Positions 1,870 through 32,180 are shown, counted from the first letter of the stretch. The stretch: 64,000 nt of DNA from an uncultured delta proteobacterium (GCA_963737905.1 CAVTUQ010000007.1:64001-128000), one strand, 5' to 3'. Translations and numbers: made by a program. Notes: a model not told the origin generated them from the sequence alone.

Positions 1870-3018
1870 TTAAGTTTTTGGCCCAATATTGCCCGGTCCA
1901 GTCTCTTCGTTTTGTGACACTGCCGGATCCGAGTTTGGACTGGTGGCGATCCAACCCATGAAGATTTGATACCCAAGCGCCAACAACGTCGCGCCGACAA
2001 ACATTCCTAAAATTCCGCCGCTCGCCATACCGCCCAATGCGCCGAGCAGGATCACCGGCATGGGCGCGTCGACGCCGCGACCCAGCATCAGCGGTTTCAA
2101 GACGTTGTCAGCCATGCCGGTCAGCAGCAGGATGATGGTATGTGTGATCGCCGCCGCGGTGCCGTAATCACCACTCGACCAGATGTAAATGATGACTGGA
2201 ACCGTCACGATTAGGGCTGGCACTTGGGCAATACCCAATACGAGCGCGATGGCCGACAACACGCCCGCCGCCGGTACGCCGGCGAGCAGCAGCGCCAACC
2301 CGATGAGGATTGCCTGAATGAAGGCGACGCCGATGACGCCTAGCGCGACGGCGCGGATGGTTGCCGTGGAGAGTTTGGCGAGGGCCTCGCCTCTCGCGGC
2401 GCCAGCGACACGAACGAAAATCGCCCGGCTGCCGCGCGCGCCTGATTCACCGTATGCCATCAGGATGCTGGCGACGAGGAATGAGACTAGAAACAGCAAC
2501 AGGCCGCTGCCAATGCTTGCGACCATAGCAACTGCTTTCTGGGCCAATTCGCCGATCTTCGGTTGCATGCTCCGCACGAATCCGGGCAGGTCGGTATGAG
2601 CTTTCGACCAGACATCGTGGATCTGCTTGCCAACCAGCGGCCATTTCTCAACGCCCTCTCGCGGGGCGGGTATTGCGAGCGTGTTTTGTTGCACAGCGCC
2701 GATAAAATGACGAACGGAGTCGGCAAACGAATTCATCAGCAACGCCATCGGAGTGATGATCAACAAAAGGCCGACGATCACCAGAATAGTCGAGGCGAGC
2801 CATTGCTTCCCGCCAACTTTGTGGGCGAGCCATTGGTGCAACGGATACAACGTCACCGCCAAGATGATTGACCAGACCATCAGCGTCAGAAATGGCGAAA
2901 AGACTTGGTAGCACAGCACCGCCAGCACGCCAATCAAACCCGCGCGAATCAACACATCCAGCAGAGAGGACGACGCTCGCTGTTCCAATTCGGAATCTGC
3001 CTGTGGAAGGGGATTCAT
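1870..3018 (-). CDS. AI-2E family transporter (PerM-like)
   Basis: 382 aa multi-TM protein with DNVLKPLMLGRGVDAPMPVILLGALGG motif. Confidence 0.9.
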   Translation of the reverse strand: MNPLPQADSELEQRASSSLLDVLIRAGLIGVLAVLCYQVFSPFLTLMVWSIILAVTLYPLHQWLAHKVGGKQWLASTILVIVGLLLIITPMALLMNSFADSVRHFIGAVQQNTLAIPAPREGVEKWPLVGKQIHDVWSKAHTDLPGFVRSMQPKIGELAQKAVAMVASIGSGLLLFLVSFLVASILMAYGESGARGSRAIFVRVAGAARGEALAKLSTATIRAVALGVIGVAFIQAILIGLALLLAGVPAAGVLSAIALVLGIAQVPALIVTVPVIIYIWSSGDYGTAAAITHTIILLLTGMADNVLKPLMLGRGVDAPMPVILLGALGGMASGGILGMFVGATLLALGYQIFMGWIATSPNSDPAVSQNEETGPGNIGPKT

Positions 3019-3123
3019 TGGTTTTATCCTCTTGCGAGGTTGAATCGGCCGCCCTCAGTGTACTACGTAAGAATGGCGAGTAAACAGTCGTATGAGTCAT
3101 CGCCACCTGTTTTGCCTCAGGCG

Positions 3124-3202
3124 GCCTAACGCCAGGCTGAGAAGCCACGCCTGGCGAGCGCAGCGAGCAGGGCGTAGGTCTTCCTCAAACCGATGGTTAG
3201 CT
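3124..3202 (-). mobile_element. Integron attC site
   Basis: Minus strand AGCTAAC (3202-3196) ... GTTAGGC (3130-3124), 79 bp imperfect palindrome starting just after the BrnA stop. Confidence 0.72.
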
Positions 3203-3203
3203 T

Positions 3204-3454
3204 TCAGTTTTGGCTCGCAAGTTCTTCGCGCACAATCTTGCGGACCATTTCTTCCGTAACGGGCTTCGCCGTCAGACCCAGATAAGAGTTCAGCGCGTCG
3301 TTGATTAGGGTCTGGTATCCTTTTCCGGTTTTTTGGATTGAGCCTTGAAACGTTCCAGAACCCCGTCGTCAAGATAAATCGTGATGCGCGTTTTCCCAAC
3401 CTGGGGGATTACCGCTCCGCGTCTACCCTTGGAAAAGTTATACTCCCTTTTCAT
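3204..3454 (-). pseudogene. brnA: BrnA-family antitoxin, frameshifted (one base missing in an A-run near 3330)
   Basis: MKREYNFSKGRRGAVIPQVGKTRITIYLDDGVLERFKAQSK continues in a shifted frame as GKGYQTLINDALNSYL...ELASQN*. Confidence 0.8.
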
Positions 3455-3720
3455 AACTCCTTCTCTCCTTCGGTGTTGGATTACGAACCGAAATGATGCG
3501 CGCATCGTCGCCCCGAGGTGTCCGACCGCAACCATCAATGTGCCGAATGTGTTCGCCCCCAGGGTCACGAACGCTTGCTCTCCCTCGGGCCGAGTGAATA
3601 CTTCGATTGTGACGGCGAGGGGATCACTCAAGAAACGCCATCTTCCTTCGGCAAGTCTAGCCACCGTGCTAACTTGAGATTTTCCGCATCCTTGTTAGGG
3701 GAGTCACAAAGTTGCTCGTC
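3438..3720 (-). pseudogene. brnT: BrnT-family toxin with multiple frameshifts
   Basis: Fragments PNKDAENLK / SDPLAVTIE...GEQAFVTLG / TPRGDDARIISVRNPTPKERRSYEKGV* in different frames; 3' end overlaps the brnA start. Confidence 0.7.
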
Positions 3721-3809
3721 ACTCGGCAAGTGATGCATATGATGCATGTATTGCAGGCGCGCGCAAGACTACGGGAAAGGAAGACGTATATGGAAGACTA
3801 ACCATAGAG

Positions 3810-3927
3810 TATACTGACTACCGATATTGGGTATCGCCGAAGTGAATAAAATAAAATTGGTACTCTCTCAATCAATTAAGTTGTCAATTATTCATTTTCG
3901 CAGGTATATCCAATCGTGGTCAGTATA
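3810..3927. mobile_element. AT-rich MITE-like element with imperfect terminal inverted repeats
   Basis: TATACTGACTACCGATATTGG ... CCAATCGTGGTCAGTATA; interior AT-rich and partly self-complementary. Confidence 0.55.
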
Positions 3928-4197
3928 GCATCAATATACCTGCGTAGCGGCAATCTGATTCACAGGCCGTCGGCCGGACTGCGAACGCCTTGGCCGCCTC
4001 GATTCAACACCTGCGGATGGAGCTCGTAGTGCGCACGTCTTTCGCCCGGAGTCTGTATACATCTCCGTCACACATTTTTGCAGAAGCAAATCGGTTGGTG
4101 CGCTCTATATGCTGTGATTCATTGACACTATCTCGGGATTTCCATATACCCTAGCGGTAAGCGAAATTAGAGTCTTCTCGAAGGAGGTTTCGCGGAC

Positions 4198-5110
4198 ATG
4201 ATGCCGGCGCATGATAATTTTTATGACGTTTATTCGAAGGCTAAGAAGATCAAAATCAAGTGGCCGAACAATGCCAGGATGGCGATTGCTTTGGCGGGGA
4301 ATCTGGAAGCCTGGACTGAGATTCCGAATCCCAAGCATCGGCGGACACATCATGTCGGCGGGTCGAATCCGATCAAGGAAGATGATGTCGTTTCCCTCTA
4401 CGATTGCCGGACGGCAAGTGAGAACGATTACGGCGGAAGGACGGGTGTCTGGCGCATCCTGCGGATCTTGGATAAGTACGGCGTGAAGGCTTCCTTCAAT
4501 ACCAATGCGCTATGCATTCATCGCTATCCCGAGGCGGTGAAAGCCGTCCATGAGCGAGGCCATGAAATCGTCGGCCATTCTTATGCAGAGGATCTTCAGT
4601 TGATTCATCTCACGGAAGAGCAGGAACGAGAAGAGATCCGCACCTGTGCCAAGATGTTTCAGGACTTCGTCGGCGTGAAGATCACAGGTTGGCTCACTTC
4701 CGGGATGCGCCACACGGAGCGGACCTTGGGAATCTTGGCCGATGAAGGGTTTTCTGTGGCACGGCGACGCCGTCAACGACGACAATCCCTATCCGGTAAA
4801 CATCAAGGGCAAGACGATGATCATCGTGCCGTACAAAAACGCGGTCAGTGGGCTGAACGATACGGGCATGTATCGGAGAGGCATCACGGCGCGGGATGTT
4901 TTCAACTCGTTTAAAGATGAATTCGATCTGCTTTACGAAGAGTCGGCCGAAGACCCCAAGATGCTGACCCTGGCGATGCACTGCCAGATGGCTTTTCCGG
5001 CGACGGGCAAGATTTACGATGAGGCGATCAAGTATGCCAAGTCGTTTTCGGATGTCTGGTTCGCCAAGCGAATCGAGATCGTCAATTGGGTGAAGGAAAA
5101 TTGTCTGTGA
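4198..5110 (+). CDS. Polysaccharide deacetylase (CE4/PuuE-like) family protein, split by one extra T at about 4750-4753
   Basis: ORFs 4198-4914 and 4742-5110 join into DYGGRTGVWRILRILDKYGVKASF...GHEIVGHSY...GFLWHGDAVNDDNPY...MLTLAMH. Confidence 0.85.
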
Positions 5111-5128
5111 AGGGTAGTCCCATTTTCA

Positions 5129-5165
5129 CCCTCACCTCACTCCTCTCCCGTCAAGGGAGAGGAGG
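5129..5165. repeat. REP-like hairpin
   Basis: ccctcacctcactCCTCTCCC-gtcaa-GGGAGAGGagg. Confidence 0.55.
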
Positions 5166-5202
5166 TAAATGCTCTAAGGGGTGAATAAGCGAGGAGGCTG
5201 CT

Positions 5203-6579
5203 ATGTGCGATACGGCTGATGATGGCGTGGGGATAAGCAATTCTGTTCCGGGAGAGGAGCGATTGAAACGCGTTGGGCTTCGCTCCGCCGATCTTTCAGA
5301 ATTAATGCCGTTTGCGCGCCAGCTGGCGAATGGGCGCGAGAACCGCGATAGCCATATCGGGTTCGTCGGCTATAACAAAACCGTGCCGGGCAACAAGGTG
5401 CTCATCGCCGTGGATCGGGAGTACGATCAGGCTGTGCCCAATGCGGTGGCTGCAGCGCTCAGGGAGAAGGGCGCACATGTCGATATTTTGATCGCCGATA
5501 TGGGCGATCCCAACCGCGAGTTCGATTATCTGGACGAGGTCGAGGTCATCATGCGCCGCGAGCCCTGGGATAAAAATCCCAGGCGCTGGGAGGGGATGCC
5601 GTACATCGAGGACTTCGCACTGCGGCGCGGCTACGATTTGCTGATCCACGGCAAAGGCGGACCCATTCCCAAGACGGATTTTCGTTACGAGCAGATCCCG
5701 TGGTTGCGCCCCGAGCATTTCCTCCAGCGCTCGACGACCTATCCGTTGGACTTACACTTGCTCATTAACAAGAAAACCTGGGACCCGATCTGGGAGTACG
5801 GACGAGGGGGACGCGCGAGTCTCACGGATGCGGAGGGCACGGATATTTCATGGACCTATTGGGATGAATACTACGACGGCACCCGGTATGGGTTTTCCTC
5901 AACGCCCCGCAACGGTCATCTCTTCGGCCACCCGGTACCGCCCATCATCGCCAAAGAAAACGCTGCGGGTGTGGTTGCCGGGACGACGAGCCATTTTTCC
6001 CGGGCGTTTCCGCAAGTCAAAGTCGAGCTGGATGGCGGACAGATCGTAAAGGTTATGGGTGGCGCTGCTTACGGTGATACATGGCGGGATTTATTGGAAG
6101 AGAGCAAGCGCACTCAGTATCCTTGCTTCCCGCGACCGGGATTATTTTATCTTTGGGAAGTTGCCATCGGCACCAATCCAAAGATCATGAGACCCAGTCA
6201 CATCGAACTCCATTCCTCCGGTGGATTTGAATGGGAGCGCCGCCGCTCCGGCGTGATCCACATGGGCTTCGGCACGCTCTGGCGCTCCGAAGAGGAGAAA
6301 TGGGCGGGCGAAAACGGAATCCTCTATGGTCATTTGCATATTCATCTCTTATTCGCGACGTTCACGATTACCACCAAAAGCGGGAAGGATTATACGATCA
6401 TTCGCAACGGCCGTCTGACGGCGCTGGACGATCCCGAAGTGCGAAAATTCGCCGAGAAATACGGCGATCCGGATGATCTTCTTAGAGAAGACTGGATTCC
6501 CCAGATTCCGGGGATAACGGCCGCCGGCTCTTACGACGAGTACGCGCGAAATCCCGGGGCGTGGATCTATAACCGGTAG
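5203..6579 (+). CDS. Hypothetical protein, distant M29 aminopeptidase/NicX-like fold
   Basis: 458 aa with GGAGG RBS; EVAIGTNPK, GVIHMGFG and HLHIH motifs; resembles 52058-53173. Confidence 0.6.
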   Translation: MCDTADDGVGISNSVPGEERLKRVGLRSADLSELMPFARQLANGRENRDSHIGFVGYNKTVPGNKVLIAVDREYDQAVPNAVAAALREKGAHVDILIADMGDPNREFDYLDEVEVIMRREPWDKNPRRWEGMPYIEDFALRRGYDLLIHGKGGPIPKTDFRYEQIPWLRPEHFLQRSTTYPLDLHLLINKKTWDPIWEYGRGGRASLTDAEGTDISWTYWDEYYDGTRYGFSSTPRNGHLFGHPVPPIIAKENAAGVVAGTTSHFSRAFPQVKVELDGGQIVKVMGGAAYGDTWRDLLEESKRTQYPCFPRPGLFYLWEVAIGTNPKIMRPSHIELHSSGGFEWERRRSGVIHMGFGTLWRSEEEKWAGENGILYGHLHIHLLFATFTITTKSGKDYTIIRNGRLTALDDPEVRKFAEKYGDPDDLLREDWIPQIPGITAAGSYDEYARNPGAWIYNR

Positions 6580-6642
6580 TTTCGAGTTTCGGGTTCCGAG
6601 TTCCAGGTTTGAACCCGAAACGCGAGACCCGAAACCCGAAAC
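6579..6642. repeat. Tandem 7-mer inverted array (GTTTCGR)n-(CCCGAAA)n
   Basis: gtttcga gtttcgg gttccga gttccag ... cccgaaa cgcgaga cccgaaa cccgaaac. Confidence 0.8.
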
Positions 6643-6727
6643 GTTCTGCCTATCTACCATTGCCGGTTTTGCCTCTTGAAGTCGTGGGTAGGGGTGGATA
6701 TGATCCGAGCAAAGGAGATTTTCACGC

Positions 6728-8125
6728 ATGGGCGGACGGACACTCTACGACAAGATTTGGGAATCTCACACCGTCGGGATTCTATCCACCGGGCAAATTC
6801 AGCTCTTCATCGGACTGCACCTCATTCACGAAATTACCACGGCACCAGCCTTCGACATGCTGCGCGAGCAGGGCATGGACGTGGCATTTCCAGAAAGGAC
6901 TTTCGCGACGGTCGATCACATCGTGCCCACGCATGTTCGAACCCGGCCGTTTCTTGATTCCGAGGCGGAAGAATTAATTCAGGCCTTAGAGAAGAACGTC
7001 AAACAGTTTGGTGTGGAGTTTTTCGGTTTGGACCACCAGAACCAAGGCATCGTCCACGTCATCGGGCCGCAGTTGGGCTTGACCCAACCCGGAATGACGC
7101 TTGCCTGCGGTGACAGCCACACGAGCACGCACGGCGCGTTTGGCACGCTTGCCTTCGGGATTGGAACCAGCCAGGTGCGTGACGTTTTGGCCACGCAGAC
7201 GTTGGCGATGGATAAGCTCAAGGTGCGGCGAATTAGCGTCAACGGAGCTCTTGGGACCGGTGTCTACGCCAAAGATGTGATCCTCAACACGATACGGCGA
7301 TTGGGTGTTGCCGGCGGGAAAGGCTTTGCGTACGAGTATGGCGGCGCCGTGATCGACAAGATGAATATGGAAGAGCGCATGACCGTCTGCAACATGAGCA
7401 TCGAGGGAGGGGCTTTAGTCGGCTACGTCAATCCTGATCAGACGACCTTCGACTATCTCAAGGGGCGGCCTTATGTGCCGACCGGGCAGGCATTCGATCG
7501 CGCGGTAGCGTACTGGAAGTCCGTCGCATCCGATCCGGATGCGAGATATGACGACGTTGTGAATTACGAGGGAAAAGATATTGAACCCACTGTGACCTGG
7601 GGTATCAATCCGGGGCAGGCGGTGGGCATTTCTGAAAAACTTCCGAAGCCTGAGGAATACTCCGACCCCGATGGAGCAAAAAAGGCATACGAGCATATGG
7701 GATGGCAGCAGGGAGCGCCGATACTCGGCACGCCCATCAATGTGGCGTTCGTGGGCTCTTGCACAAACTCGCGTATGACCGACCTGCGCGCGGCCGCCAG
7801 GATTGCTAAAGGTAGAAAAGTCAAATCCGGGATTCGCGCCCTGGTGGTTCCAGGTTCGGCGGAGGTTAAGAAGCTTGCCGAACAGGAAGGGTTGCACGAG
7901 ATTTTCAAGGAAGCGGGATTCGAATGGCGCGAGGCAGGTTGCTCGATGTGCCTGGCGATGAATCCCGACAAGCTGAATGGTCGCGAAATTTGCGCCTCCT
8001 CGTCGAACCGTAACTTCATCGGGCGCCAAGGGAGTCCCGGTGGCCGCACCTTGCTCATGAGTCCGGCGATGGTCGCGGCGGCGGCTTTGAACGGCAAGGT
8101 TGTCGACGTGCGTGAGTATCAGTAG
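6728..8125 (+). CDS. leuC: 3-isopropylmalate dehydratase large subunit
   Basis: [48 protein letters not shown]. Confidence 0.97.
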
Positions 8126-13189: not shown

Positions 13190-14014
13190 TCACGATAATT
13201 TAGCGGTAAAAACGGCACTGTCGTAAATGTCTGGGCGACGATTTTTGAGCAAGGGCAACTTCTCCCTCACTTCTCCAACCATCGAAAGGTCGAGGTCTAC
13301 GATTGCCAAGCCTTGGCACTCGCCCATATCAATGACGACTCGGCCAAAGGGATCCACGACCATGCTGTGGCCGATGTAAATATTGCCGACTTGGTCAGGA
13401 GCGATCACATAGCAACCATTTTCCAGCGCCCGCGCCCTCACCATGGTTTGCCAGTGTTCGACCTTCATATCGCCTGCAACCCAGCCGGAAGGGGACATGA
13501 GTATTTCCGCGCCCATCAACGTCAGGAGCCGGGATAATTCCGGGAAACGAAGGTCGTAACAGATCGTCATGGCCGCGGTGCCGATGGCGGACTTGAAGGG
13601 CTGTGTCAATTCCCTGCCGGCGAGGAATTTGTCGGACTCCTTGAAGCCCAGAGCATCGTAGAGGTGCAACTTCCGGTACACAGCCAAAAGATGGCCCGAG
13701 GCATCGATCCACATCGCCGTATCGTAAACACGGCCAGGTACATCGCTTTTCTCGTAGATCGTCGCCAGGGTTTCGATGTTTGCCGCCGCCGAGGCTGCGC
13801 GTAGGGATCTGGTAAAGGGTCCATCGAGAGTCTCCGAGATTTCGACGAGTGACTCGGCGGACTGTGTGGCCGGGGAAAAGGCCATGAGAAATTCCGGGAA
13901 GGCGACCATGCCAGCTCCTTTACTCTTGGCCTCGCTGATGAGTTCCCTGGCGAGATCCAGGTTAGCCGCCTTTTCAGTAGAGGACGTGATCTGTGCGAGA
14001 GCAATGCGTGTCAT
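13190..14014 (-). CDS. Carbon-nitrogen hydrolase (Nit1/YbeM-like amidase)
   Basis: FPE, YRKLHLYDA, ICYDLRFPE, RARALEN (E-K-C triad). Confidence 0.92.
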   Translation of the reverse strand: MTRIALAQITSSTEKAANLDLARELISEAKSKGAGMVAFPEFLMAFSPATQSAESLVEISETLDGPFTRSLRAASAAANIETLATIYEKSDVPGRVYDTAMWIDASGHLLAVYRKLHLYDALGFKESDKFLAGRELTQPFKSAIGTAAMTICYDLRFPELSRLLTLMGAEILMSPSGWVAGDMKVEHWQTMVRARALENGCYVIAPDQVGNIYIGHSMVVDPFGRVVIDMGECQGLAIVDLDLSMVGEVREKLPLLKNRRPDIYDSAVFTAKLS

Positions 14015-14029
14015 AGCAAGCAGGATACT

Positions 14030-14100
14030 TGGAGTGATGGAGTATTGGAGTGTTGGGATTCGGCTATTTCCCCAGTTACTCCATCACTCCAGTACTCCAA
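14030..14100. repeat. Tandem 8-9-mer inverted array (GGAGTRNT)n-(ACTCC)n
   Basis: tggagtgatggagtattggagtgttggga...ttactccatcactccagtactccaa. Confidence 0.8.
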
Positions 14101-14109
14101 TTCGTCTTC

Positions 14110-15165
14110 TTACACGTTCAAGGTCTGGCCTGCCCCCTTCTTTTTCACTTGCTCCAACACCAAGGCTCCCAGAGCCACATCCGCCACCCCTTGGCCGGCG
14201 TTGTTCTTGTAAACTGTAATTTGGTCCGCCTTGGTGCGCCCTTCTTTTTTGCCGGCGAGGATTTCTCCGATTTCAATCAATTGCTCCCACTTGATCACAC
14301 CGCGTTGTACCGGATCGTAAATATCCGCCTGTTCGTCCTGCATTGCCTGCTGCACCGAGACAATGCCGAGAACGTGGCTTCGCGCCAGGGTTGCATCGTC
14401 GATCTCCCGCCTCTTGGCCGCCGTGAATCCCCCCTTAACCAATCCAACGTTGCTGCCGACAATGGTCGTGACATGCTGGCCGGGTGTAAGCCAACTGCCG
14501 TCGAATACCGGAACGCTGGAGTTGGTTGCCGCCAAAACGATATCGACGCCGCGCAACGCTTCTTGCGGACTTGCGACCGGTGTGATGTTTAGGTTGGTTA
14601 CCGGGCCCATTTCCTCGACGAACTTGCGCCGGTTCTCGGGATTGCGGCTGTAGACTCTGACGTCCTTTAGTTTTCGCACCTGCATGAGCGCAAGCAGGTG
14701 ATTCTTCGCCTGGCCGGCGGCGCCGAAAAGGCCCAGCCGGGTGGCGTCGGGCCGCGCTAAAAGATCGGTGCCGACGGCGCTGGTGGCCGCCGTGCGAAGT
14801 CCGGTCACGGCGACGTTATCCGGCAGCTCGGCGCAAGTGATTTCGCCGACAATGATGCCTTTGAGTTCGCCTTCGGCGGCGTCGTATAGCACGATCACCG
14901 GGTGATTCAACCGCGGATAGACTTGCTCTTCGACCATGGGTTTGACCCATTCGCAGTGAGTCATGAGCCCGGTAGCACCGCTAGCAGGAACGCCGCCTTG
15001 ATGCACGCTTACACGGACACCGGTGGGAATGTGAATCCTTCGGCGCGGGGCGTTGAGTTGGGGACTTTCGCCCCATTCACGGAAGCCGGCGCGGACCGCC
15101 TCGACCGCAGCTTCCATGCCGACGATGCCGCGAATCTCCTGGGGGAGGATTAATACCGGTTGCAT
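14110..15165 (-). CDS. Ornithine cyclodeaminase/mu-crystallin family imine reductase
   Basis: TGLRTAATSAVG, GLFGAAGQA, ITVYKNNAGQGVADVA. Confidence 0.9.
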   Translation of the reverse strand: MQPVLILPQEIRGIVGMEAAVEAVRAGFREWGESPQLNAPRRRIHIPTGVRVSVHQGGVPASGATGLMTHCEWVKPMVEEQVYPRLNHPVIVLYDAAEGELKGIIVGEITCAELPDNVAVTGLRTAATSAVGTDLLARPDATRLGLFGAAGQAKNHLLALMQVRKLKDVRVYSRNPENRRKFVEEMGPVTNLNITPVASPQEALRGVDIVLAATNSSVPVFDGSWLTPGQHVTTIVGSNVGLVKGGFTAAKRREIDDATLARSHVLGIVSVQQAMQDEQADIYDPVQRGVIKWEQLIEIGEILAGKKEGRTKADQITVYKNNAGQGVADVALGALVLEQVKKKGAGQTLNV

Positions 15166-15202: not shown

Positions 15203-15763
15203 CTATAGAGTAGAAGCGACGGCTGGGCGGGCCACGAGGTCTTCTCCCCAGCGTTTCAAGTTGGGCAAGCTGTCGTCGATGGTTGCACCGTAGCGCTGCC
15301 GACGCGTATAGAACGGAATGAAAGTGATGTCCGCCAACGAGTAGTCTCCCGCGAAGTATTGCCTGCCCGCCATTTCCTGGTCGAGGGTCTGGAGATGCTT
15401 TTGCATCCGCTCTTTTGCTTTTTCCGGCTCTTTATCGTGAGTGAAGTCATGAGCCGCGGCATGCAGCCGGCTATTCATGAAGTCGATCCAGATCCGTATC
15501 CTTGCCCTTAGCAAATGATCGCCGGGCATGAGACGGGTCGCCGGATACTTCTCGTCGAGATACTCGTTGACGATGGCCGATTCATAAATCACCCCGTCGC
15601 CATCAATTAACACCGGAACTTTGGCGTAAGGGTTGACCTCCAGAAGATCTTTCGGTTTGTTTTTGAGATTCACTTCGATGAGTTCGTAGGGAATCTGTTT
15701 TTCCGCCAGGACAATCCTTGTCCTATGGGCGTAGGGTCAACCGTGGCTGGAGTAGAGCTTCAT
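15203..15763 (-). CDS. Glutathione S-transferase (omega-like), probable selenoprotein (TGA=Sec at 15737-15739)
   Basis: AAGGAGG RBS, ATG 15763, MKLYSSHG-TGA-PYAHRTRIVLAEK in frame with ORF 15203-15673 (NPYAKVPVL, YESAIVNEYLDE, YSLAD). Confidence 0.88.
15704..15731 (-). promoter_or_regulatory. Putative bacterial SECIS element (GST)
   Basis: CGCC-cau-AGGACAA-gga-UUGUCCU-GGCG; G-starting loop 20 nt after UGA. Confidence 0.72.
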
Positions 15764-15830
15764 AGAATCATCCTCCTTAACATCGCTTTACTTACCATCC
15801 CAGGGGGAAGATGACAACGTGACGCTGGGT

Positions 15831-16637
15831 CTAGCGTCGCCTTGTCTGAAGACGGTCCTGAAGTCCGTCACCGACCAGGTTGAGCCCGAAGACCGTGATC
15901 ATGATCGCAATCCCAGGGTAGGTCGTCAGGTTGGGCGCGACCAGCAAAAACTGTCGCCCGTCATTCAACATCGATCCCCAGGAAGGCGTTGGCGGTTCGA
16001 CTCCCAATCCCAGGAAGCTCAGGCTGCCTTCGGCGATAATTGCCGCCGCCAATCCAAAGGTGGCTTGGATTAGCACGGGAGGAAGAAGATTCGGGAGTAG
16101 GTGCCGCCTAATAAGCCGGCCGGGCTTGCAGCCGAGCGCCCGAGCCGCTTGGACGAATTCGCGCTCCCTCAGCGCGAGGATCTCGCCGCGGACCAATCGT
16201 GCATAGCCGGTCCAGCCGATCAAACAAAGCGCCAGAATGACGTGATCGAGACCCGGGCCGAGAACGGCGGTGAAGGCGATGGCAAGGAGAATGCCGGGAA
16301 AAGCCATGAGGATATCGACGAGACGCATGATCAATTGATCGGCCCATCCGCCGAAATATCCCGACAAAGATCCGATGGCCAAACCAATGGCAAGAGAAAT
16401 CATAACCGTAGTGGCACCCACCAGAAGGGAGATTCGCCCGCCGTAGAGAACCCGGCTCAGGATGTCCCGGCCCAACTTGTCAGTTCCCAGGGGGTTCTCC
16501 CTGGAATAGGTACGTAGATCATTGTCGAGGTTTTGTCGCGTTGGATCATGGGGTGCCAGAAGCGGAGCCATTAGTGCAGATAAGACGAGCAGGGTCAGGA
16601 TAACCGAACCAACGTAGAACCAGCGATTACTTTCCAT
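15831..16637 (-). CDS. Peptide/nickel ABC transporter permease (DppC-like)
   Basis: LGTDKLGRDILSR, EFVQAARALG, PSWGSML. Confidence 0.93.
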   Translation of the reverse strand: MESNRWFYVGSVILTLLVLSALMAPLLAPHDPTRQNLDNDLRTYSRENPLGTDKLGRDILSRVLYGGRISLLVGATTVMISLAIGLAIGSLSGYFGGWADQLIMRLVDILMAFPGILLAIAFTAVLGPGLDHVILALCLIGWTGYARLVRGEILALREREFVQAARALGCKPGRLIRRHLLPNLLPPVLIQATFGLAAAIIAEGSLSFLGLGVEPPTPSWGSMLNDGRQFLLVAPNLTTYPGIAIMITVFGLNLVGDGLQDRLQTRRR

Positions 16638-17550
16638 AGGTGATTCTTGGATCGACTAACTGATAGAAGATGTCCGTCACGAGATTCACCAGGAGGTATG
16701 AAGTGGCGATTACCAGCACGCAGCCCTGGACCAAAGGGTAATCGCGGCTCTGAATCGCCTGCACGGTCAATCGCCCGATCCCTGGCCAAGAAAACACCGT
16801 CTCCGTGATGATCGACCCGGCAAGCAACGAACCGAACTGCAAACTCATGATCGTGATAACCGAAAGCAGGGCGTTGCGAAGCGTGTGCTTGAGCCAGACT
16901 TTTTTCTCGCTAAGTCCCTTGGCGCGGGCGCTTCGCACATAGTCTTCGCTGCTCACTTGCAGCAAGCTCGCGCGGAGGATGCGGGTCAGTATCGCTGCCA
17001 TGCCCATCCCGAGCGTAAGCGATGGGAGAACTAAATGATCGAGCCCGTCGCGACCGGAGACCGGCGTCCAACCCAGTTGAATGGAGAAGATAATCATGAG
17101 CAGGGGACCAAGCCAAAAATTGGGCAGCGAAACGCCCAGAAGGGAAAATAATAGGGCGCCGCGGTCGGTTCCCGATCCCTTGTTGATTGCGGCTAGAGTC
17201 GCTAGAGGAAACGAGATGATTACCGCGATTGCCATGGCGCATAGAGTGAGCTCGATCGTGGCGGGCAATCTTGCGCTGATAAGGTCCGTGACCGAGGATT
17301 GCTCAACGAGCGAACGCCCTAGGTCTCCCCGTAGCAGCCCAGTCAAGAAATTACGATACTGAGCCATCAAGGGCTGATCGAGAGCCAGACTCCGGCGCAG
17401 CTCTTCTTTGTCCGCAGCACTGGCGGTTTCGCCCAGCATCACCTCGATGGGATCCCCGGGAACCAGATGGATCAAAAAGAAAACCAAAGTGAGCGCCCCG
17501 AATAGAGTGGGCAAAAGCAGCAACAAGCGCTGGGGAAGGTAACGGTTCAC
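16627..17550 (-). CDS. Peptide/nickel ABC transporter permease (DppB-like)
   Basis: LVPGDP, DYVRSARAKGL, RDYPLVQG; GTG start overlaps the upstream TGA. Confidence 0.93.
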   Translation of the reverse strand: MNRYLPQRLLLLLPTLFGALTLVFFLIHLVPGDPIEVMLGETASAADKEELRRSLALDQPLMAQYRNFLTGLLRGDLGRSLVEQSSVTDLISARLPATIELTLCAMAIAVIISFPLATLAAINKGSGTDRGALLFSLLGVSLPNFWLGPLLMIIFSIQLGWTPVSGRDGLDHLVLPSLTLGMGMAAILTRILRASLLQVSSEDYVRSARAKGLSEKKVWLKHTLRNALLSVITIMSLQFGSLLAGSIITETVFSWPGIGRLTVQAIQSRDYPLVQGCVLVIATSYLLVNLVTDIFYQLVDPRITYGK

Positions 17551-19145
17551 TTGGCAGCGGTTGGCGATCGAAACGAGACGTTTTTGAATCCAGTAAAATC
17601 GCCATCGGGATAGGGAACAAATCCCTGGAGAGAGGACGTTTTTACGACTACGTTTTTCCACCACCATAAGGGGATGTAAGGGAGATCTTCGGCGAGAATT
17701 CGTTGTACCTCGCCGTAAATGCGCTTTCTCTCGGTTATGTCCATCGTCCTTTGTCCCTTTTCCAATAATTGATCCACTTGAGGATTGCTGTAGTGCCCCC
17801 GGTTATCTCCATTAGGCGGCACGCTGGCGGAATGAAAAATCTGATAATAAATATCCGGATCCTGTATGCCGACCCACGCGAGGGAGTAGAGATGAAAGTT
17901 GCCCTTCTTAATGTCACTGAAGAAGGTACCCCATTCATAGGTGCGGATTTCCAGCTCGATGCCGACGCTCAGTAACTGTTCTTTGAGAGCTTCGGCAATT
18001 CTTCTCCGTAGATCGAGATTTGTGCTTTTAAAAGAGAGTTTGAATCGAGGTTGGGGCCCGTCACCATCTGGATCACGGAATCCAGCTTCATCCAGCAACC
18101 GTTTCGCCTTCTCCGGATCGTGAGGCCATTGGTCGACCGTACCTTCATAAGCCCAATTCAGCGGCGAAAGGAGGCCGCTGGCGGGAGTTCCGAGATCTTT
18201 AATCAGGTGGCGAATGATGCTTTTGCGGTCGATCGCATACGCCAATGCTTGACGTACCTTCTTGTGCTTGAGAATGGGGTGCGTCAAGTTGATGCCGATG
18301 TACTGAAACGTTGTGCCTTGACGGGCTTCGATGTCTGCGTCGGTGTTCTGCTTCAGCCAAGGGAGCACATCGGGTTCCAGATCGTTCTGCATGAAACCGA
18401 TGCTTCCCTTCTTGAATTCGAGAACGCGAACCATGGCGTCGGGAACCACTTTGAAGATCAGTCCCGCAATCGAAGGCTTCCCTTCCCAATAAGAGGGGTT
18501 CGCCTTTAAGGTCACCGCCTCTCCCGATTGGAGTGATTCCAGGATAAAGGGTCCGGAACCAGCAGGTGGAGTGGCGCTTGACGCGGCATCCCCAACGGAA
18601 CTCGAGGGAACGATGCCTATGGTAAAGTGCTCCGGAAAAGGCGCGTGGGGCGCCATCAAACGGAAGCGCAGGCGATAGGGTCCAAGTTCGTCGATCGCTT
18701 GAAGCGGTTTCAAGAGCGCCCGCTTAGGGGAGCGGTTCTTGGCTTGCATAATCGACTCATAGGTAAATTTGACATCCGCGGCCGTAAGCGGCGCGCCATT
18801 GTGGAATGTGACGTTCTTTCTTAGATCAAAAATATATGTCTGAGGGTCCACCCGTTGCCAATTCTCAGCCAATTCCGGTTGCAACCGTGAGTTCTCGTCG
18901 GAGCGCAACAATGAGTTATACATCAGACCCCCGATCCGCACGGAGTTCGCATCCGTCGAGTAACGCGGATCCAGTTGAAGCGGGTTGCTTTCGATGCCAA
19001 CGATCAAGTAACCGGGGCGATCGCCAGACGAGGAAGAAACACGACAGCCTCCCAACACGACGATCAGGCTGACGACAAGAAAGCGATGGTAGCGGGTGTG
19101 TCTCTTCAACCAGAAATTTCCCAAGGTGAAATTTTGACTAACCAT
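17547..19145 (-). CDS. Peptide ABC transporter substrate-binding lipoprotein (DppA-like; start uncertain)
   Basis: LGGC lipobox-like, LRKNVTFHNGAPLTAADVKFT, GSGPF, VRQALAYAIDR. Confidence 0.9.
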   Translation of the reverse strand: MVSQNFTLGNFWLKRHTRYHRFLVVSLIVVLGGCRVSSSSGDRPGYLIVGIESNPLQLDPRYSTDANSVRIGGLMYNSLLRSDENSRLQPELAENWQRVDPQTYIFDLRKNVTFHNGAPLTAADVKFTYESIMQAKNRSPKRALLKPLQAIDELGPYRLRFRLMAPHAPFPEHFTIGIVPSSSVGDAASSATPPAGSGPFILESLQSGEAVTLKANPSYWEGKPSIAGLIFKVVPDAMVRVLEFKKGSIGFMQNDLEPDVLPWLKQNTDADIEARQGTTFQYIGINLTHPILKHKKVRQALAYAIDRKSIIRHLIKDLGTPASGLLSPLNWAYEGTVDQWPHDPEKAKRLLDEAGFRDPDGDGPQPRFKLSFKSTNLDLRRRIAEALKEQLLSVGIELEIRTYEWGTFFSDIKKGNFHLYSLAWVGIQDPDIYYQIFHSASVPPNGDNRGHYSNPQVDQLLEKGQRTMDITERKRIYGEVQRILAEDLPYIPLWWWKNVVVKTSSLQGFVPYPDGDFTGFKNVSFRSPTAAK

Positions 19146-19192
19146 ATCCCGTTTGCTACGATGGGTCAATTTTTCCACGATTGATCGATATC

Positions 19193-31577: not shown

Positions 31578-32180
31578 TCAAAGAATGGCCTTCACCGAGG
31601 GGCGATCTTTCATTCTCTGCAGGTATTTTCCCAGCCGGGGTAGAGAGGCGTCGGGAAGAACGCCGAACCCCTCCAGTCTTGTGAAGCGGGGTAGGAGATC
31701 AGCATCTGCGAGGGAGAAGTCGCCCACTAGATAGGACTGGTCGCCAAGCTCATCTTCAAGACGCTGCAGGAGTTTTCGGAGATCGCTCTTCGCCGTGTCG
31801 ATGACTTGTTGATTCTGTTCCTTGGGGTCCTTCGTAACTTCCACGCGCAGCTTTTGATATGCCCCGTCGAGGTGAGCCAGTCCGTAGTCGGTCAGGATGC
31901 GGGCCTTCGCGCGTTTCCCTAGATCCGCCGGCATCAAGGGAGGGTTGGGATATTTTTCGTCCAGGTATTCGTTGATAATGCACGATTCGTAAAGAACTGT
32001 GCCGTCATCGGTTAGAACAGGAACTTTTCCGTAAGGATTGAGCTTGAGGTACTCGGGCGTTTTTTGTTCCTGTTTCCGCAGGTCAATGGGCACGATTTCG
32101 TAGGGTAGATTTTTTTCCGCCAGGACGATCTTTACGCGCTGGCAATTGGGCGAGGACTTGAAGTCATAAAGCTTGATCAT
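31578..32180 (-). CDS. Glutathione S-transferase family protein (Ser-type, SPNC)
   Basis: MIKLYDFKSSPNCQRVKIVLAEK, NPYGKVPVL, YESCIINEYLDE. Confidence 0.93.
   Translation of the reverse strand: MIKLYDFKSSPNCQRVKIVLAEKNLPYEIVPIDLRKQEQKTPEYLKLNPYGKVPVLTDDGTVLYESCIINEYLDEKYPNPPLMPADLGKRAKARILTDYGLAHLDGAYQKLRVEVTKDPKEQNQQVIDTAKSDLRKLLQRLEDELGDQSYLVGDFSLADADLLPRFTRLEGFGVLPDASLPRLGKYLQRMKDRPSVKAIL

What the first reader, a model, noticed from the sequence alone, without database searches (positions are those of the whole stretch)
15203..15763. Hidden selenoprotein: omega-type GST with a UPYA active site and SECIS-like hairpin
Seen: strong RBS and ATG, codon 9 is TGA exactly where omega-class GSTs have the catalytic Cys (CPY/FA), the frame continues to a full 186-aa GST with no Cys, and a CGCC/AGGACAA-gga-UUGUCCU/GGCG hairpin follows with its loop 20 nt after UGA. 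Known: bacterial SECIS elements lie just 3' of UGA with a G in the apical loop; Sec-containing GST-like proteins are rare. The paralogue at 31578-32180 has Ser (TCG) at the same position, giving a natural Sec/Ser comparison.
Basis: partly seen in the sequence, partly recalled or inferred. Interest (0 to 1): 0.8.

Follow-up and report, generated by a model that had tools for sequence, protein, structure and literature searches.

The report
Selenocysteine glutathione transferase gene, known family
The apparent stop codon near the start of this glutathione-transferase gene almost certainly encodes selenocysteine at the catalytic site, but selenoprotein GSTs of this type were already predicted from ocean metagenomes in 2005, so this is a sound annotation correction and not a new kind of thing.

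Summary
A Shine-Dalgarno site and ATG (15763) open a 186-codon GST frame whose codon 9 is TGA (15739-15737), followed by a hairpin.

The TGA sits in the same column in 45 orthologous loci from Candidatus Binatia assemblies. The sister species has TGT (Cys) there. A 17-nt hairpin core 12-28 nt after the UGA (apical loop after 19 nt) has frozen synonymous sites in every TGA-bearing gene. It has decayed in Cys homologues that encode the same peptide.

The genome carries selA, selB, a Sec-containing selD and two TGA-bearing formate dehydrogenase genes. TGA is also its commonest ordinary stop codon. tRNA-Sec was not found in this 87%-complete assembly, although 32 of 40 relatives have it.

The model is a confident GST fold with Sec at the N-cap of helix 1. 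It is nearest to Cys-type SspA/RegF-like GSTs solved with glutathione bound, and less near to Omega class.

The kind is already known: 'GST' selenoproteins with uPYA/uPWV motifs are in the 2005 Sargasso Sea set. This scan has also reported the Binatia branch before, on other DNA.

Three details are specific to this window. One is the Sec-to-Cys switch in a congener, with decay of the hairpin. The second is a conserved operon with a peptide ABC importer, an imine reductase and a Nit-type amidase. The third is that public gene calls truncate the protein to 156 aa.

The parts
15203..15763 (-). Sec-GST gene: 186 codons plus stop TAG (15205-15203), with codon 9 = TGA read as selenocysteine
   Evidence: Translation. 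Pfam GST_N_3 and GST_C. AlphaFold model with mean pLDDT 95.6 and a GST fold. Orthologues of 186-190 aa.
15771..15778 (-). Shine-Dalgarno AAGGAGGA, 7 nt upstream of the ATG (15763-15761)
   Evidence: Sequence read. GGAGG-like sites stand upstream of most orthologues.
15737..15739 (-). UGA selenocysteine codon (codon 9), followed by C
   Evidence: TGA stands in the same column in 45 loci, and TGT in the sister species. It aligns with the Cys of CPFS/CPFA in solved GSTs. It is unchanged in contigs from 4 runs.
15708..15724 (-). Conserved bSECIS core: stem AGGACAA / UUGUCCU with apical loop GGA (15717-15715), 19 nt after the UGA
   Evidence: Fold. In 41 orthologues, 5 of 7 pairs are invariant and 97.9% of cells are paired. 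Synonymous entropy at codons 14-18 is 0-0.52, against 0.57-2.18 at every other degenerate codon among the first 60. The hairpin is lost in Cys homologues with the same peptide.
15704..15731 (-).
   Evidence: One search gives this structure. One search shows the lower helix paired in 78% of cells, with 2 pairs changed on both sides, no better than the slid controls.
15831..19178 (-). Upstream genes of the same strand run: family-5 solute-binding protein (17547-19178), and permeases resembling DppB/GsiC (16627-17667) and DppC/GsiD (15831-16637)
   Evidence: Pfam and NCBIfam. A DppC-like gene lies next to the Sec-GST in 32 of 47 loci.
13190..15165 (-). Downstream genes of the same strand run: OCD/mu-crystallin family reductase (14110-15165) and Nit-type CN hydrolase (13190-14014)
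   Evidence: Pfam. The CN hydrolase's best NCBIfam match is deaminated glutathione amidase, 212.8 bits, below the 355-bit cut-off. Nearest solved structures are NitFhit, yeast Nit2 and mouse Nit2 and Pyr2C reductase and ketimine reductase. An OCD gene is adjacent in 21 of 47 loci.
31578..32180 (-). Ser-type paralogue (S-P-N-C in place of U-P-Y-A), 40% identical

Best explanation
The gene encodes a 186-aa cytosolic, Cys-type glutathione transferase in which the catalytic cysteine is replaced by selenocysteine. During translation, SelB carrying Sec-tRNA(Sec) is recruited by the small hairpin (7-bp stem, GGA loop, 19 nt after the UGA) and inserts Sec at codon 9 in place of termination. This step is inferred from conservation. 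In the folded protein, Sec9 caps helix alpha-1 of the thioredoxin-like domain, next to the conserved glutathione-site residues (K48-V49-P50, E61-S62). This placement comes from a model and an alignment. The most likely chemistry is that of Cys-type GSTs (Omega, Grx2, glutathionyl-lyases). The selenolate attacks the sulfur of a glutathionylated substrate or mixed disulfide, forms an enzyme Se-S-glutathione intermediate, and is regenerated by a second GSH. This chemistry is inferred. The window's protein has Ser at position 6, so it can only use this one-selenol route. Nineteen of 43 distinct orthologues have Cys there (C-x-x-U) and could also form an internal selenenylsulfide. The conserved operon suggests that the substrate is an imported peptide-like or glutathione-derived compound.
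For: TGA conservation. At least 57 of 61 genomes of the order have a TGA-bearing copy. Of 69 listed matches at 57% identity or more, 66 carry one in-frame TGA. The 3 without are the Cys orthologue of G002 and two partial matches that begin after residue 9.

Same column. 29 of 30 loci have TGA and 1 has TGT. A further 16 loci, including a second copy in this genome (C26), have TGA.

Coding upstream of the TGA. Codons 2-5 (K-L-Y-S) are kept through synonymous changes, and a ribosome-binding site stands upstream.

RNA-level constraint. Codons 14-18 (R-T-R-I/L-V) use AGG-ACA-AGG-ATT/CTT-GTC in 43 distinct genes, with entropy 0.16, 0.52, 0, 0 and 0. All other degenerate codons among the first 60 have entropy of 0.57 or more.

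Natural control. Cys homologues encoding the identical peptide RTRIVL use other codons (AGA-ACA-CGA-ATC.., CGC-ACC-CGC-ATC.., AGG-ACG-CGC-ATC..) and do not form the hairpin. The mean 30-nt folding energy is -11.3 kcal/mol (n=45 Sec genes) against -6.4 (n=65 non-Sec genes).

bSECIS rules. The rules (apical loop 3-9 nt, stem 4-16 bp, G in the first two loop positions, spacing 16-37 nt, MFE <= -7.5; PMC13188914 Fig. 2 legend) are all met, with values 3 nt, 7 bp, GG, 19 nt and -14.1.

Sec trait in the genome. selA, selB and selD(U) are present. Two FdnG-type hits each carry one TGA.

No general recoding of TGA. TGA ends 667 of 1598 open frames of 400 codons or more, and none of the 44 tRNAs found has a UCA anticodon.

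Fold. pLDDT is 95.6 and helix 10-21 starts right after Sec9. The top structural matches are 4hoj, 4qq7 and 6v91 with TM 0.89-0.91, two of them solved with glutathione. Sec9 aligns with the Cys of CPFS in those chains.

Glutathione supply. gshB scores over its cut-off, and a 458-aa GCS2-family frame is present.

Independent samples. The TGA and the hairpin are unchanged in contigs from 3 DNA runs of 3 studies and in one RNA-library contig covering 15332-15763, while other sites differ by about 1-2%.
Against: No tRNA-Sec gene was found in this assembly. The best RF01852 hit scores 46.6 bits and is a tRNA-Leu. ARAGORN finds none among 44 tRNAs. The near-identical tRNA-Sec of 12 relatives gives only 16-nt chance matches. 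Synteny with the congener's selC locus is broken. The assembly is 87% complete, so this is not proof of absence.

The stem shows no compensatory changes, because 5 of 7 pairs never vary. The structure therefore rests on frozen synonymous sites, not on covariation.

The hairpin's energy alone is unremarkable (z = -0.59).

There is no protein-level evidence (75Se labelling or mass spectrometry).

The RNA-library contig does not prove transcription.

The substrate and the chemistry are inferred from family resemblance only.
Confidence: 0.92

Rival explanations
1. The TGA is a real stop. The true product is the 156-aa protein that starts at the internal GTG (15673), as gene callers predict, and the upstream frame is a decayed remnant.
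For: Public gene calls give exactly this. Of the 120 best database homologues, 118 are 129-175 aa, mostly 156 aa. tRNA-Sec was not found in this assembly.
Against: A dead 5' part would not keep a ribosome-binding site, an ATG and the K-L-Y-S codons under synonymous-only change, nor the TGA itself, in 45 loci spread over three families of an order. The 156-aa form would lack strand beta-1, the catalytic residue and helix alpha-1 of the thioredoxin fold. The Cys orthologue is full length at 186 aa.
Confidence: 0.03
2. The UGA is read through by something other than Sec, such as near-cognate Trp or Cys insertion or a suppressor tRNA, helped by the weak UGA-C context and the hairpin. The protein would then carry Trp or Cys at position 9.
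For: UGA is followed by C in 42 of 43 orthologues, and UGA-C is recalled to be a leaky termination context. selC is not in the assembly.
Against: No tRNA with a UCA anticodon was found. TGA is the commonest stop in the genome. The column alternates only with Cys. The hairpin fits the SelB-type bSECIS rules. The genome keeps an intact selA-selB-selD(U) cluster and TGA-bearing FDH genes. Relatives with the same gene do have tRNA-Sec.
Confidence: 0.04
3. The protein is an SspA-type RNA-polymerase-associated regulator and not an enzyme, with Sec as an accident of ancestry.
For: The best NCBIfam hit is SspA (105.6 bits), and the best solved relatives are named SspA or RegF.
Against: The SspA score is far below its cut-off of 314. 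The PHP motif, reported as indispensable for SspA's contacts with sigma70 and RNA polymerase (PMC11879090, passages), reads P-A-T here and varies among orthologues. The gene lies in a transporter/amidase operon and not next to sspB. Keeping a costly Sec codon and its SECIS in 45 loci argues for catalysis.
Confidence: 0.03

Closest known systems
GST / GST-like prokaryotic selenoprotein family (Zhang, Fomenko & Gladyshev 2005, Sargasso Sea, PMC1088965; GOS 2008, PMC2398784; reviews PMC9312934 and PMC13188914)
   Same: It has a GST N-terminal domain with the Sec-UGA at the junction of strand 1 and helix 1. The 2005 supplement lists GST entries that read ...VT-u-PWVQRAVIVL... and ...FRR-u-PYAIRARLAL..., which is the same U-P-[YW]-x motif and the same position. 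The hairpin lies just downstream. Cys homologues vastly outnumber Sec forms (12 Sec against 1,036 Cys in GOS).
   Different: Those sequences come from marine metagenomes. This is a soil and freshwater Candidatus Binatia branch (record titles; run labels) with its own invariant hairpin sequence. I compared the marine sequences by eye only and ran no alignment. The reviews give no CxxU motif for the family, yet 19 of 43 distinct Binatia orthologues have C-x-x-U.
SspA/RegF-like Cys-type GSTs of Betaproteobacteria (PDB 4hoj, 4qq7, 6v91)
   Same: They are the best sequence matches (E 5e-33 to 9e-33) and structure matches (TM 0.89-0.91, 32-35% identity). They share the C-P-F-S / U-P-Y-A column and the H/Q-R-x-R-x-V-L-x-E-K helix, and two were solved with glutathione bound.
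   Different: Those have Cys, are 197-211 aa, and carry the PHP motif. Here the residue is Sec, the length is 186 aa, and the motif reads P-A-T.
Omega-class GST (human GSTO1/GSTO2)
   Same: It is a Cys-type GST. The alignment of query 2-184 to chain 25-214 places Sec9 on residue 32 of GSTO1, which I recall as the catalytic Cys32 of CPFA. Thiol-transferase-type chemistry is expected.
   Different: The match is weaker (E 1e-25). Omega proteins are about 240 aa with an N-terminal extension of about 24 residues that is absent here.

Membership tests
Bacterial selenoprotein gene (Sec-UGA with bSECIS) | The in-frame UGA aligns with Cys in homologues and is conserved in orthologues | tested here: met
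   29 TGA and 1 TGT among 30 loci. 16 more TGA loci, plus Cys homologues reading CPYA or CPFC. 66 of 69 matches at 57% identity or more carry one TGA.
Bacterial selenoprotein gene (Sec-UGA with bSECIS) | A hairpin after the UGA with a 3-9 nt loop, a 4-16 bp stem, G in the first two loop positions, 16-37 nt spacing and MFE <= -7.5 kcal/mol | tested here: met
   The rules come from the PMC13188914 Fig. 2 legend. The values here are loop GGA, 7 bp, 19 nt and -14.1 kcal/mol. Synonymous sites of the stem are frozen in 43 genes.
Bacterial selenoprotein gene (Sec-UGA with bSECIS) | The hairpin is supported by compensatory base changes | tested here: inconclusive
   5 of 7 upper-stem pairs never vary and none shows a change on both sides. 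The lower stem cannot be told apart from the controls.
Bacterial selenoprotein gene (Sec-UGA with bSECIS) | selA, selB and selD are present in the genome | tested here: met
   All three score over their curated cut-offs and are clustered on C29. selD reads G-U-A-A-K.
Bacterial selenoprotein gene (Sec-UGA with bSECIS) | selC (tRNA-Sec) is present in the genome | tested here: not met
   It was not found by Rfam RF01852, ARAGORN or blastn with relatives' tRNA-Sec. The assembly is 87% complete and in 46 contigs. 32 of 40 relatives have a hit of 64-79 bits, and 12 of 12 fetched were called tRNA-SeC(tca).
Bacterial selenoprotein gene (Sec-UGA with bSECIS) | Selenium is in the protein (75Se labelling or mass spectrometry) | not testable with these tools
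   No proteomic data could be consulted.
GST-like selenoprotein family (2005) | A GST N-terminal domain (COG0625 / PF13409) with Sec at the catalytic position at the start of helix 1 | tested here: met
   PF13409 at E 5e-21. The model places Sec9 just before helix 10-21. The Sargasso entries show uPWV and uPYA at residues 12-13 of their frames.
GST-like selenoprotein family (2005) | Measured sequence similarity to the published members | not tested
   The published sequences were seen only in the paper's supplement and were not entered into any tool. The likeness was judged by eye.
Omega-class GST | A catalytic Cys in C-P-[FY]-A at the start of helix 1 | tested here: met
   U-P-Y-A here. The alignment offset places residue 9 on residue 32 of GSTO1. 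That residue 32 is the catalytic Cys is recalled.
Omega-class GST | An N-terminal extension and a length of about 240 aa, with Omega proteins as the nearest relatives | tested here: not met
   The protein is 186 aa with only 8 residues before Sec. The GSTO1 alignment starts at chain residue 25. SspA/RegF-like chains score better (E 5e-33 against 1e-25).
SspA (stringent starvation protein A) | The PHP motif needed for RNA polymerase/sigma70 contact, and a score over the curated cut-off | tested here: not met
   105.6 bits against a cut-off of 314. PHP aligns with P-A-T and the position is not conserved in orthologues. The motif's role is taken from passages of PMC11879090.

The most novel reading that the evidence does not exclude
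The Sec-GST is the redox or lyase step of a conserved uptake-and-salvage operon for a glutathione-derived or thioether peptide. In this reading a family-5 binding protein and two Gsi/Dpp-like permeases import the compound. The selenoenzyme removes or exchanges the glutathionyl sulfur. A Nit1-like 'deaminated glutathione amidase' relative and an OCD/ketimine-reductase relative then dispose of the transaminated products. This would give a bacterial GST selenoprotein its first defined physiological pathway.
Probability: 0.15. Interest if true: 0.55.

Novelty: new member of a known kind. Interest (0 to 1): 0.3.

Why it matters
The practical value is annotation. In this lineage, gene callers truncate the enzyme to a 156-aa fragment that lacks its active site, and 118 of the 120 nearest database proteins are short in this way. 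Selenoproteome and GST inventories of Binatia-rich soils and sediments are therefore undercounted.

The pair formed by this gene (TGA with an intact hairpin) and its 94%-identical congener (TGT, with three synonymous changes that break the hairpin, in a genome that still has tRNA-Sec and another Sec-GST) is a clean natural example of a recent Sec-to-Cys replacement followed by SECIS decay. It provides matched Sec, Cys and Ser enzymes for asking what selenium buys a GST.

The conserved operon gives a testable lead to the substrate, which is unknown for the whole family.

Tried and rejected
Covariation as proof of the hairpin gave nothing. RNAalifold and pair counting found no compensatory changes because the stem is invariant.

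Hairpin stability alone is not significant (z = -0.59).

I searched for tRNA-Sec in the own genome in five ways: Rfam family search, ARAGORN, cmscan around the sel cluster and the best candidates, blastn-short with 12 relatives' tRNA-Sec, and inspection of the region syntenic to the congener's selC locus. Nothing was found, and synteny there is not kept.

E. coli-type gshA (PF04262) was not found. A GCS2-family frame was found instead.

A sample of 400 further genomes of the phylum gave no orthologue outside the window's own family at E <= 1e-55 (1 of 400). So the branch was not found elsewhere in those searched, including 12 same-class genomes of other orders.

NCBIfam has no model that captures this protein. 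The best hit is SspA at a third of its cut-off, and the Uxx-star glutaredoxin-like selenoprotein models score weakly (31 bits against a cut-off of 66).

A literature search for Binatota together with selenocysteine returned one paper, on sponge methane cycling, seen only in the listing. I found nothing in it on this protein.

The RNA-library contig over 15332-15763 does not show transcription, because DNA can be present in such libraries.

Full report
OBSERVATION

The feature is on the minus strand. An AAGGAGGA site (15778-15771) lies 7 nt before an ATG (15763-15761). The frame runs for 186 codons to TAG (15205-15203), with a single in-frame TGA at codon 9 (15739-15737). Read with TGA=U the product is MKLYSSHG-U-PYAHRTRIVLAEK..., with no Cys elsewhere. 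Pfam finds GST_N_3 (E 7e-22), GST_N_2 and GST_C, and a weak glutaredoxin match in which U-P-Y-A falls on the C-P-Y-C region. Standard ORF finding gives only a 156-aa frame starting at GTG 15673.

Taken alone it is unremarkable (z = -0.59; 48 of 200 shuffles fold as well).

IS THE TGA A SENSE CODON?

I searched 60 relatives plus the own genome in six frames. That gave 69 listed matches at 57% identity or more.
- 66 of them carry exactly one in-frame TGA.
- The three without are the 94%-identical orthologue of a congener (G002) and two partial matches that begin after residue 9.
- At least 57 of the 61 genomes have a TGA-bearing copy.

In 30 fetched loci the TGA is always at codon 9 (29 loci). 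The exception is G002, which has TGT. A second collection added 16 more TGA loci. One of these is a second, 63%-identical Sec copy in this same genome on contig C26. The same collection gave more distant Cys forms (CPYA, CPFC) and Ser forms (SPNC, SSNS).

Upstream of the TGA, K-L-Y-S is kept through synonymous change. Lys uses AAA 26 times and AAG 11 times, Leu uses six codons, and Ser uses four. So the first eight codons are translated.

Genome-wide recoding is excluded. TGA ends 667 of 1598 open frames of 400 codons or more, and none of the 44 tRNAs found has a UCA anticodon.

Contigs of three DNA runs from three studies, and one contig from an RNA library (15332-15763), cover the site. They show no other letter at 15737-15739 or within the hairpin, while they differ at about 1-2% of other positions. 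One such difference is a synonymous CCC>CCG change in codon 10.

THE RECODING SIGNAL

I looked across 43 distinct Sec genes.
- Codons 14-18 (R-T-R-I/L-V) are AGG (42 of 43), ACA (38 of 43), AGG (43 of 43), ATT (29 of 29 Ile) or CTT, and GTC (43 of 43).
- Their synonymous entropies are 0.16, 0.52, 0, 0 and 0 bits.
- Every other degenerate codon among the first 60 has an entropy of 0.57-2.18 bits.

These codons spell the upper stem and loop (15724-15708).

The control is natural. Homologues with Cys that encode the same peptide RTRIVL use other codons and lose the hairpin. G002 uses AGA ACA CGA ATC GTC CTG, and two more distant ones use CGC ACC CGC ATC.. and AGG ACG CGC ATC... The mean energy of the 30-nt region is -11.3 kcal/mol in 45 Sec genes against -6.4 in 65 non-Sec genes.

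Because the stem is invariant there is no covariation. Five of 7 pairs never vary and none changes on both sides. The lower stem seen in this window is paired in only 78% of cells and is no better than the slid controls. The conserved element is therefore the 5-7 bp stem with its loop.

The element meets the published bSECIS constraints (PMC13188914, Fig. 2 legend, read as a passage).

| Constraint | Rule | Here |
|---|---|---|
| Apical loop length | 3-9 nt | 3 nt |
| Upper stem length | 4-16 bp | 7 bp |
| G in the first two loop positions | required | GG |
| Spacing from UGA to loop | 16-37 nt | 19 nt |
| Minimum free energy | <= -7.5 kcal/mol | -14.1 kcal/mol |

SEC MACHINERY

selA (606.9 bits), selB (409.8) and selD (381.4) all score over their curated cut-offs and lie together on contig C29. 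selD itself reads ...KAAG-U-AAKLG..., with an in-frame TGA. Two FdnG-type formate dehydrogenase hits each carry one TGA in their N-terminal third.

tRNA-Sec is the one missing piece. It was not found by Rfam (best hit 46.6 bits, a tRNA-Leu), by ARAGORN, or by blastn with relatives' genes. The region syntenic to the congener's selC holds no RNA gene.

In relatives the gene is almost invariant. It scores 64-79 bits in 32 of 40 genomes, and 12 of 12 fetched loci were called tRNA-SeC(tca). The assembly is 87% complete and in 46 contigs. I read the gap as incompleteness, but it remains open.

WHAT THE PROTEIN IS

The AlphaFold model was built from an alignment of 39 sequences. It has mean pLDDT 95.6 and pTM 0.91, with the order beta-alpha-beta-alpha-beta-beta-alpha followed by a helical domain. 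Sec9 sits immediately before helix 10-21.

The nearest solved structures are listed below.
- A Neisseria GST homologue (4hoj, RegF) and the Burkholderia 'SspA' proteins (4qq7, 6v91): TM 0.89-0.91, 32-35% identity, E 5e-33 by sequence. Two were solved with glutathione bound.
- Plant Tau GSTs.
- Human Omega GSTs, at E 1e-25.

Sec9 aligns with the Cys of C-P-F-S in the top hits. By alignment offset it aligns with residue 32 of GSTO1.

Columns invariant across 39 orthologues include C/U9-P10, K48-V49-P50 and E61-S62. From memory, the last two correspond to the cis-Pro and Glu-Ser glutathione contacts of GSTs.

It is not an SspA. Its score is a third of the SspA cut-off. The PHP motif needed for RNA-polymerase contact (PMC11879090, passages) reads P-A-T here.

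The genome can probably make glutathione. gshB scores over its cut-off, and a GCS2-family frame of 458 aa is present.

MECHANISM (INFERRED)

SelB carrying Sec-tRNA binds the hairpin and decodes the UGA. In the protein, the selenolate at the N-cap of helix 1 acts as in Cys-type GSTs. It attacks a glutathionyl sulfur, forms an Se-S-glutathione adduct, and is regenerated by a second GSH. Nineteen of 43 distinct orthologues have Cys at position 6, giving C-H-T-U, and could form an internal selenenylsulfide. The window's protein has Ser there and cannot.

EVOLUTION

In a maximum-likelihood tree (39 rows, column 9 removed), the window's Sec gene and G002's Cys gene are sisters with SH-aLRT 99. They sit inside a clade of 17 rows, 16 of which have Sec, also with support 99. 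The simplest reading is a recent Sec-to-Cys change (TGA>TGT) in G002, followed by three synonymous changes that break the hairpin.

G002 still has tRNA-Sec and another TGA-bearing GST copy, so the switch did not come from loss of the Sec trait. The Cys form is also seen in metagenome proteins. One is a cluster of 149 members at 94% identity, and there is a second Cys form at 76% identity.

CONTEXT

All of the following genes are on the minus strand, in this order: family-5 solute-binding protein, DppB/GsiC-like permease, DppC/GsiD-like permease, Sec-GST, OCD/mu-crystallin-family reductase, CN hydrolase.

I examined 47 loci, a few of which are the same genome fetched from two collections. A DppC-like gene flanks the GST in 32 of them and an OCD gene in 21. 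The second Sec-GST subfamily, which includes this genome's C26 copy, has a different context.

The CN hydrolase's best NCBIfam match is 'deaminated glutathione amidase', at 212.8 bits against a cut-off of 355. Its nearest solved relatives are NitFhit, yeast Nit2 and mouse Nit2. The OCD protein is nearest to Delta1-pyrroline-2-carboxylate reductase and to ketimine reductase. This suggests, but does not show, a salvage route for an imported glutathione-derived peptide.

COMPARISON WITH WHAT IS KNOWN

'Glutathione S-transferase' is one of the 15 new selenoprotein families of the Sargasso Sea study, with 4 sequences (Table 1, passages). The paper's supplement shows entries with ...VT-u-PWV... and ...RR-u-PYA..., so Sec sits at the same position and one entry has the same UPYA motif.

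The GOS study lists 12 Sec and 1,036 Cys members. Reviews from 2022 and 2026 list 'GST-like protein' among prokaryotic selenoproteins and say that the functions of such families remain largely uncharacterised. I saw these papers as passages and tables, not in full.

This scan has also reported Sec-GST genes before on other DNA, including Binatia. Those notes agree with what I found independently here.

The branch was not found outside the window's own order among 400 further genomes sampled from the phylum.

VERDICT

This is a genuine selenoprotein gene (confidence about 0.92) and a new member of a known kind. Its value lies in correcting the annotation, in the natural Sec/Cys/Ser series, and in the operon lead.

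Rows from the two unpublished genomes, G006 and G012 (loci L034, L052, L136), are included in the counts. No claim depends on them. They were left out of the alignment used for the structure and the tree.

Noticed in passing
G000 contig C29:71024-75669 (locus L147 about 2900-7700): selD, selB and selA lie together. selD is itself a selenoprotein, with an in-frame TGA in G-U-A-A-K near the N-terminus.
   Followed up: partly
G000 C36:54276-55361 and C29:35176-36072 (loci L151, L152): Two FdnG-type formate dehydrogenase alpha hits each carry one in-frame TGA in the N-terminal third. They are probably classical Sec-FDH genes. I did not check the column.
   Followed up: no
G000 C26:250908-251459 (locus L146:1506-2063): This is a second Sec-GST paralogue in the same genome (63% identity, motif SYGP-U-PYA) with the same hairpin core but a different gene neighbourhood. 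It belongs to a separate subfamily that is also found in families f2 and f3 of the order.
   Followed up: partly
loci L133-L144 (relatives): The 95-nt tRNA-Sec is almost identical across three families of the order, with differences confined to a few paired positions. It is nevertheless missing from this assembly and scores below the cut-off in 8 of 40 relatives.
   Followed up: partly
window 13190-14014 (-): The CN hydrolase's best NCBIfam match is deaminated glutathione amidase (below the cut-off). It stays linked to the Sec-GST even in two loci that lack the OCD gene (L033, L034).
   Followed up: partly
window 31578-32180 (-) and loci L070-L132: The Ser-type paralogues read S-P-N-C. They have lost the first position of the C-x-x-C-like motif but keep a Cys three residues later, which is the reverse of the U-P-Y-A arrangement.
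   Followed up: no
locus L067 (record titled Candidatus Udaeobacter sp.): A Sec-GST of the second subfamily sits in a MAG labelled Verrucomicrobiota and groups inside the Binatia sequences in the tree. This could be mis-binning or gene transfer.
   Followed up: no
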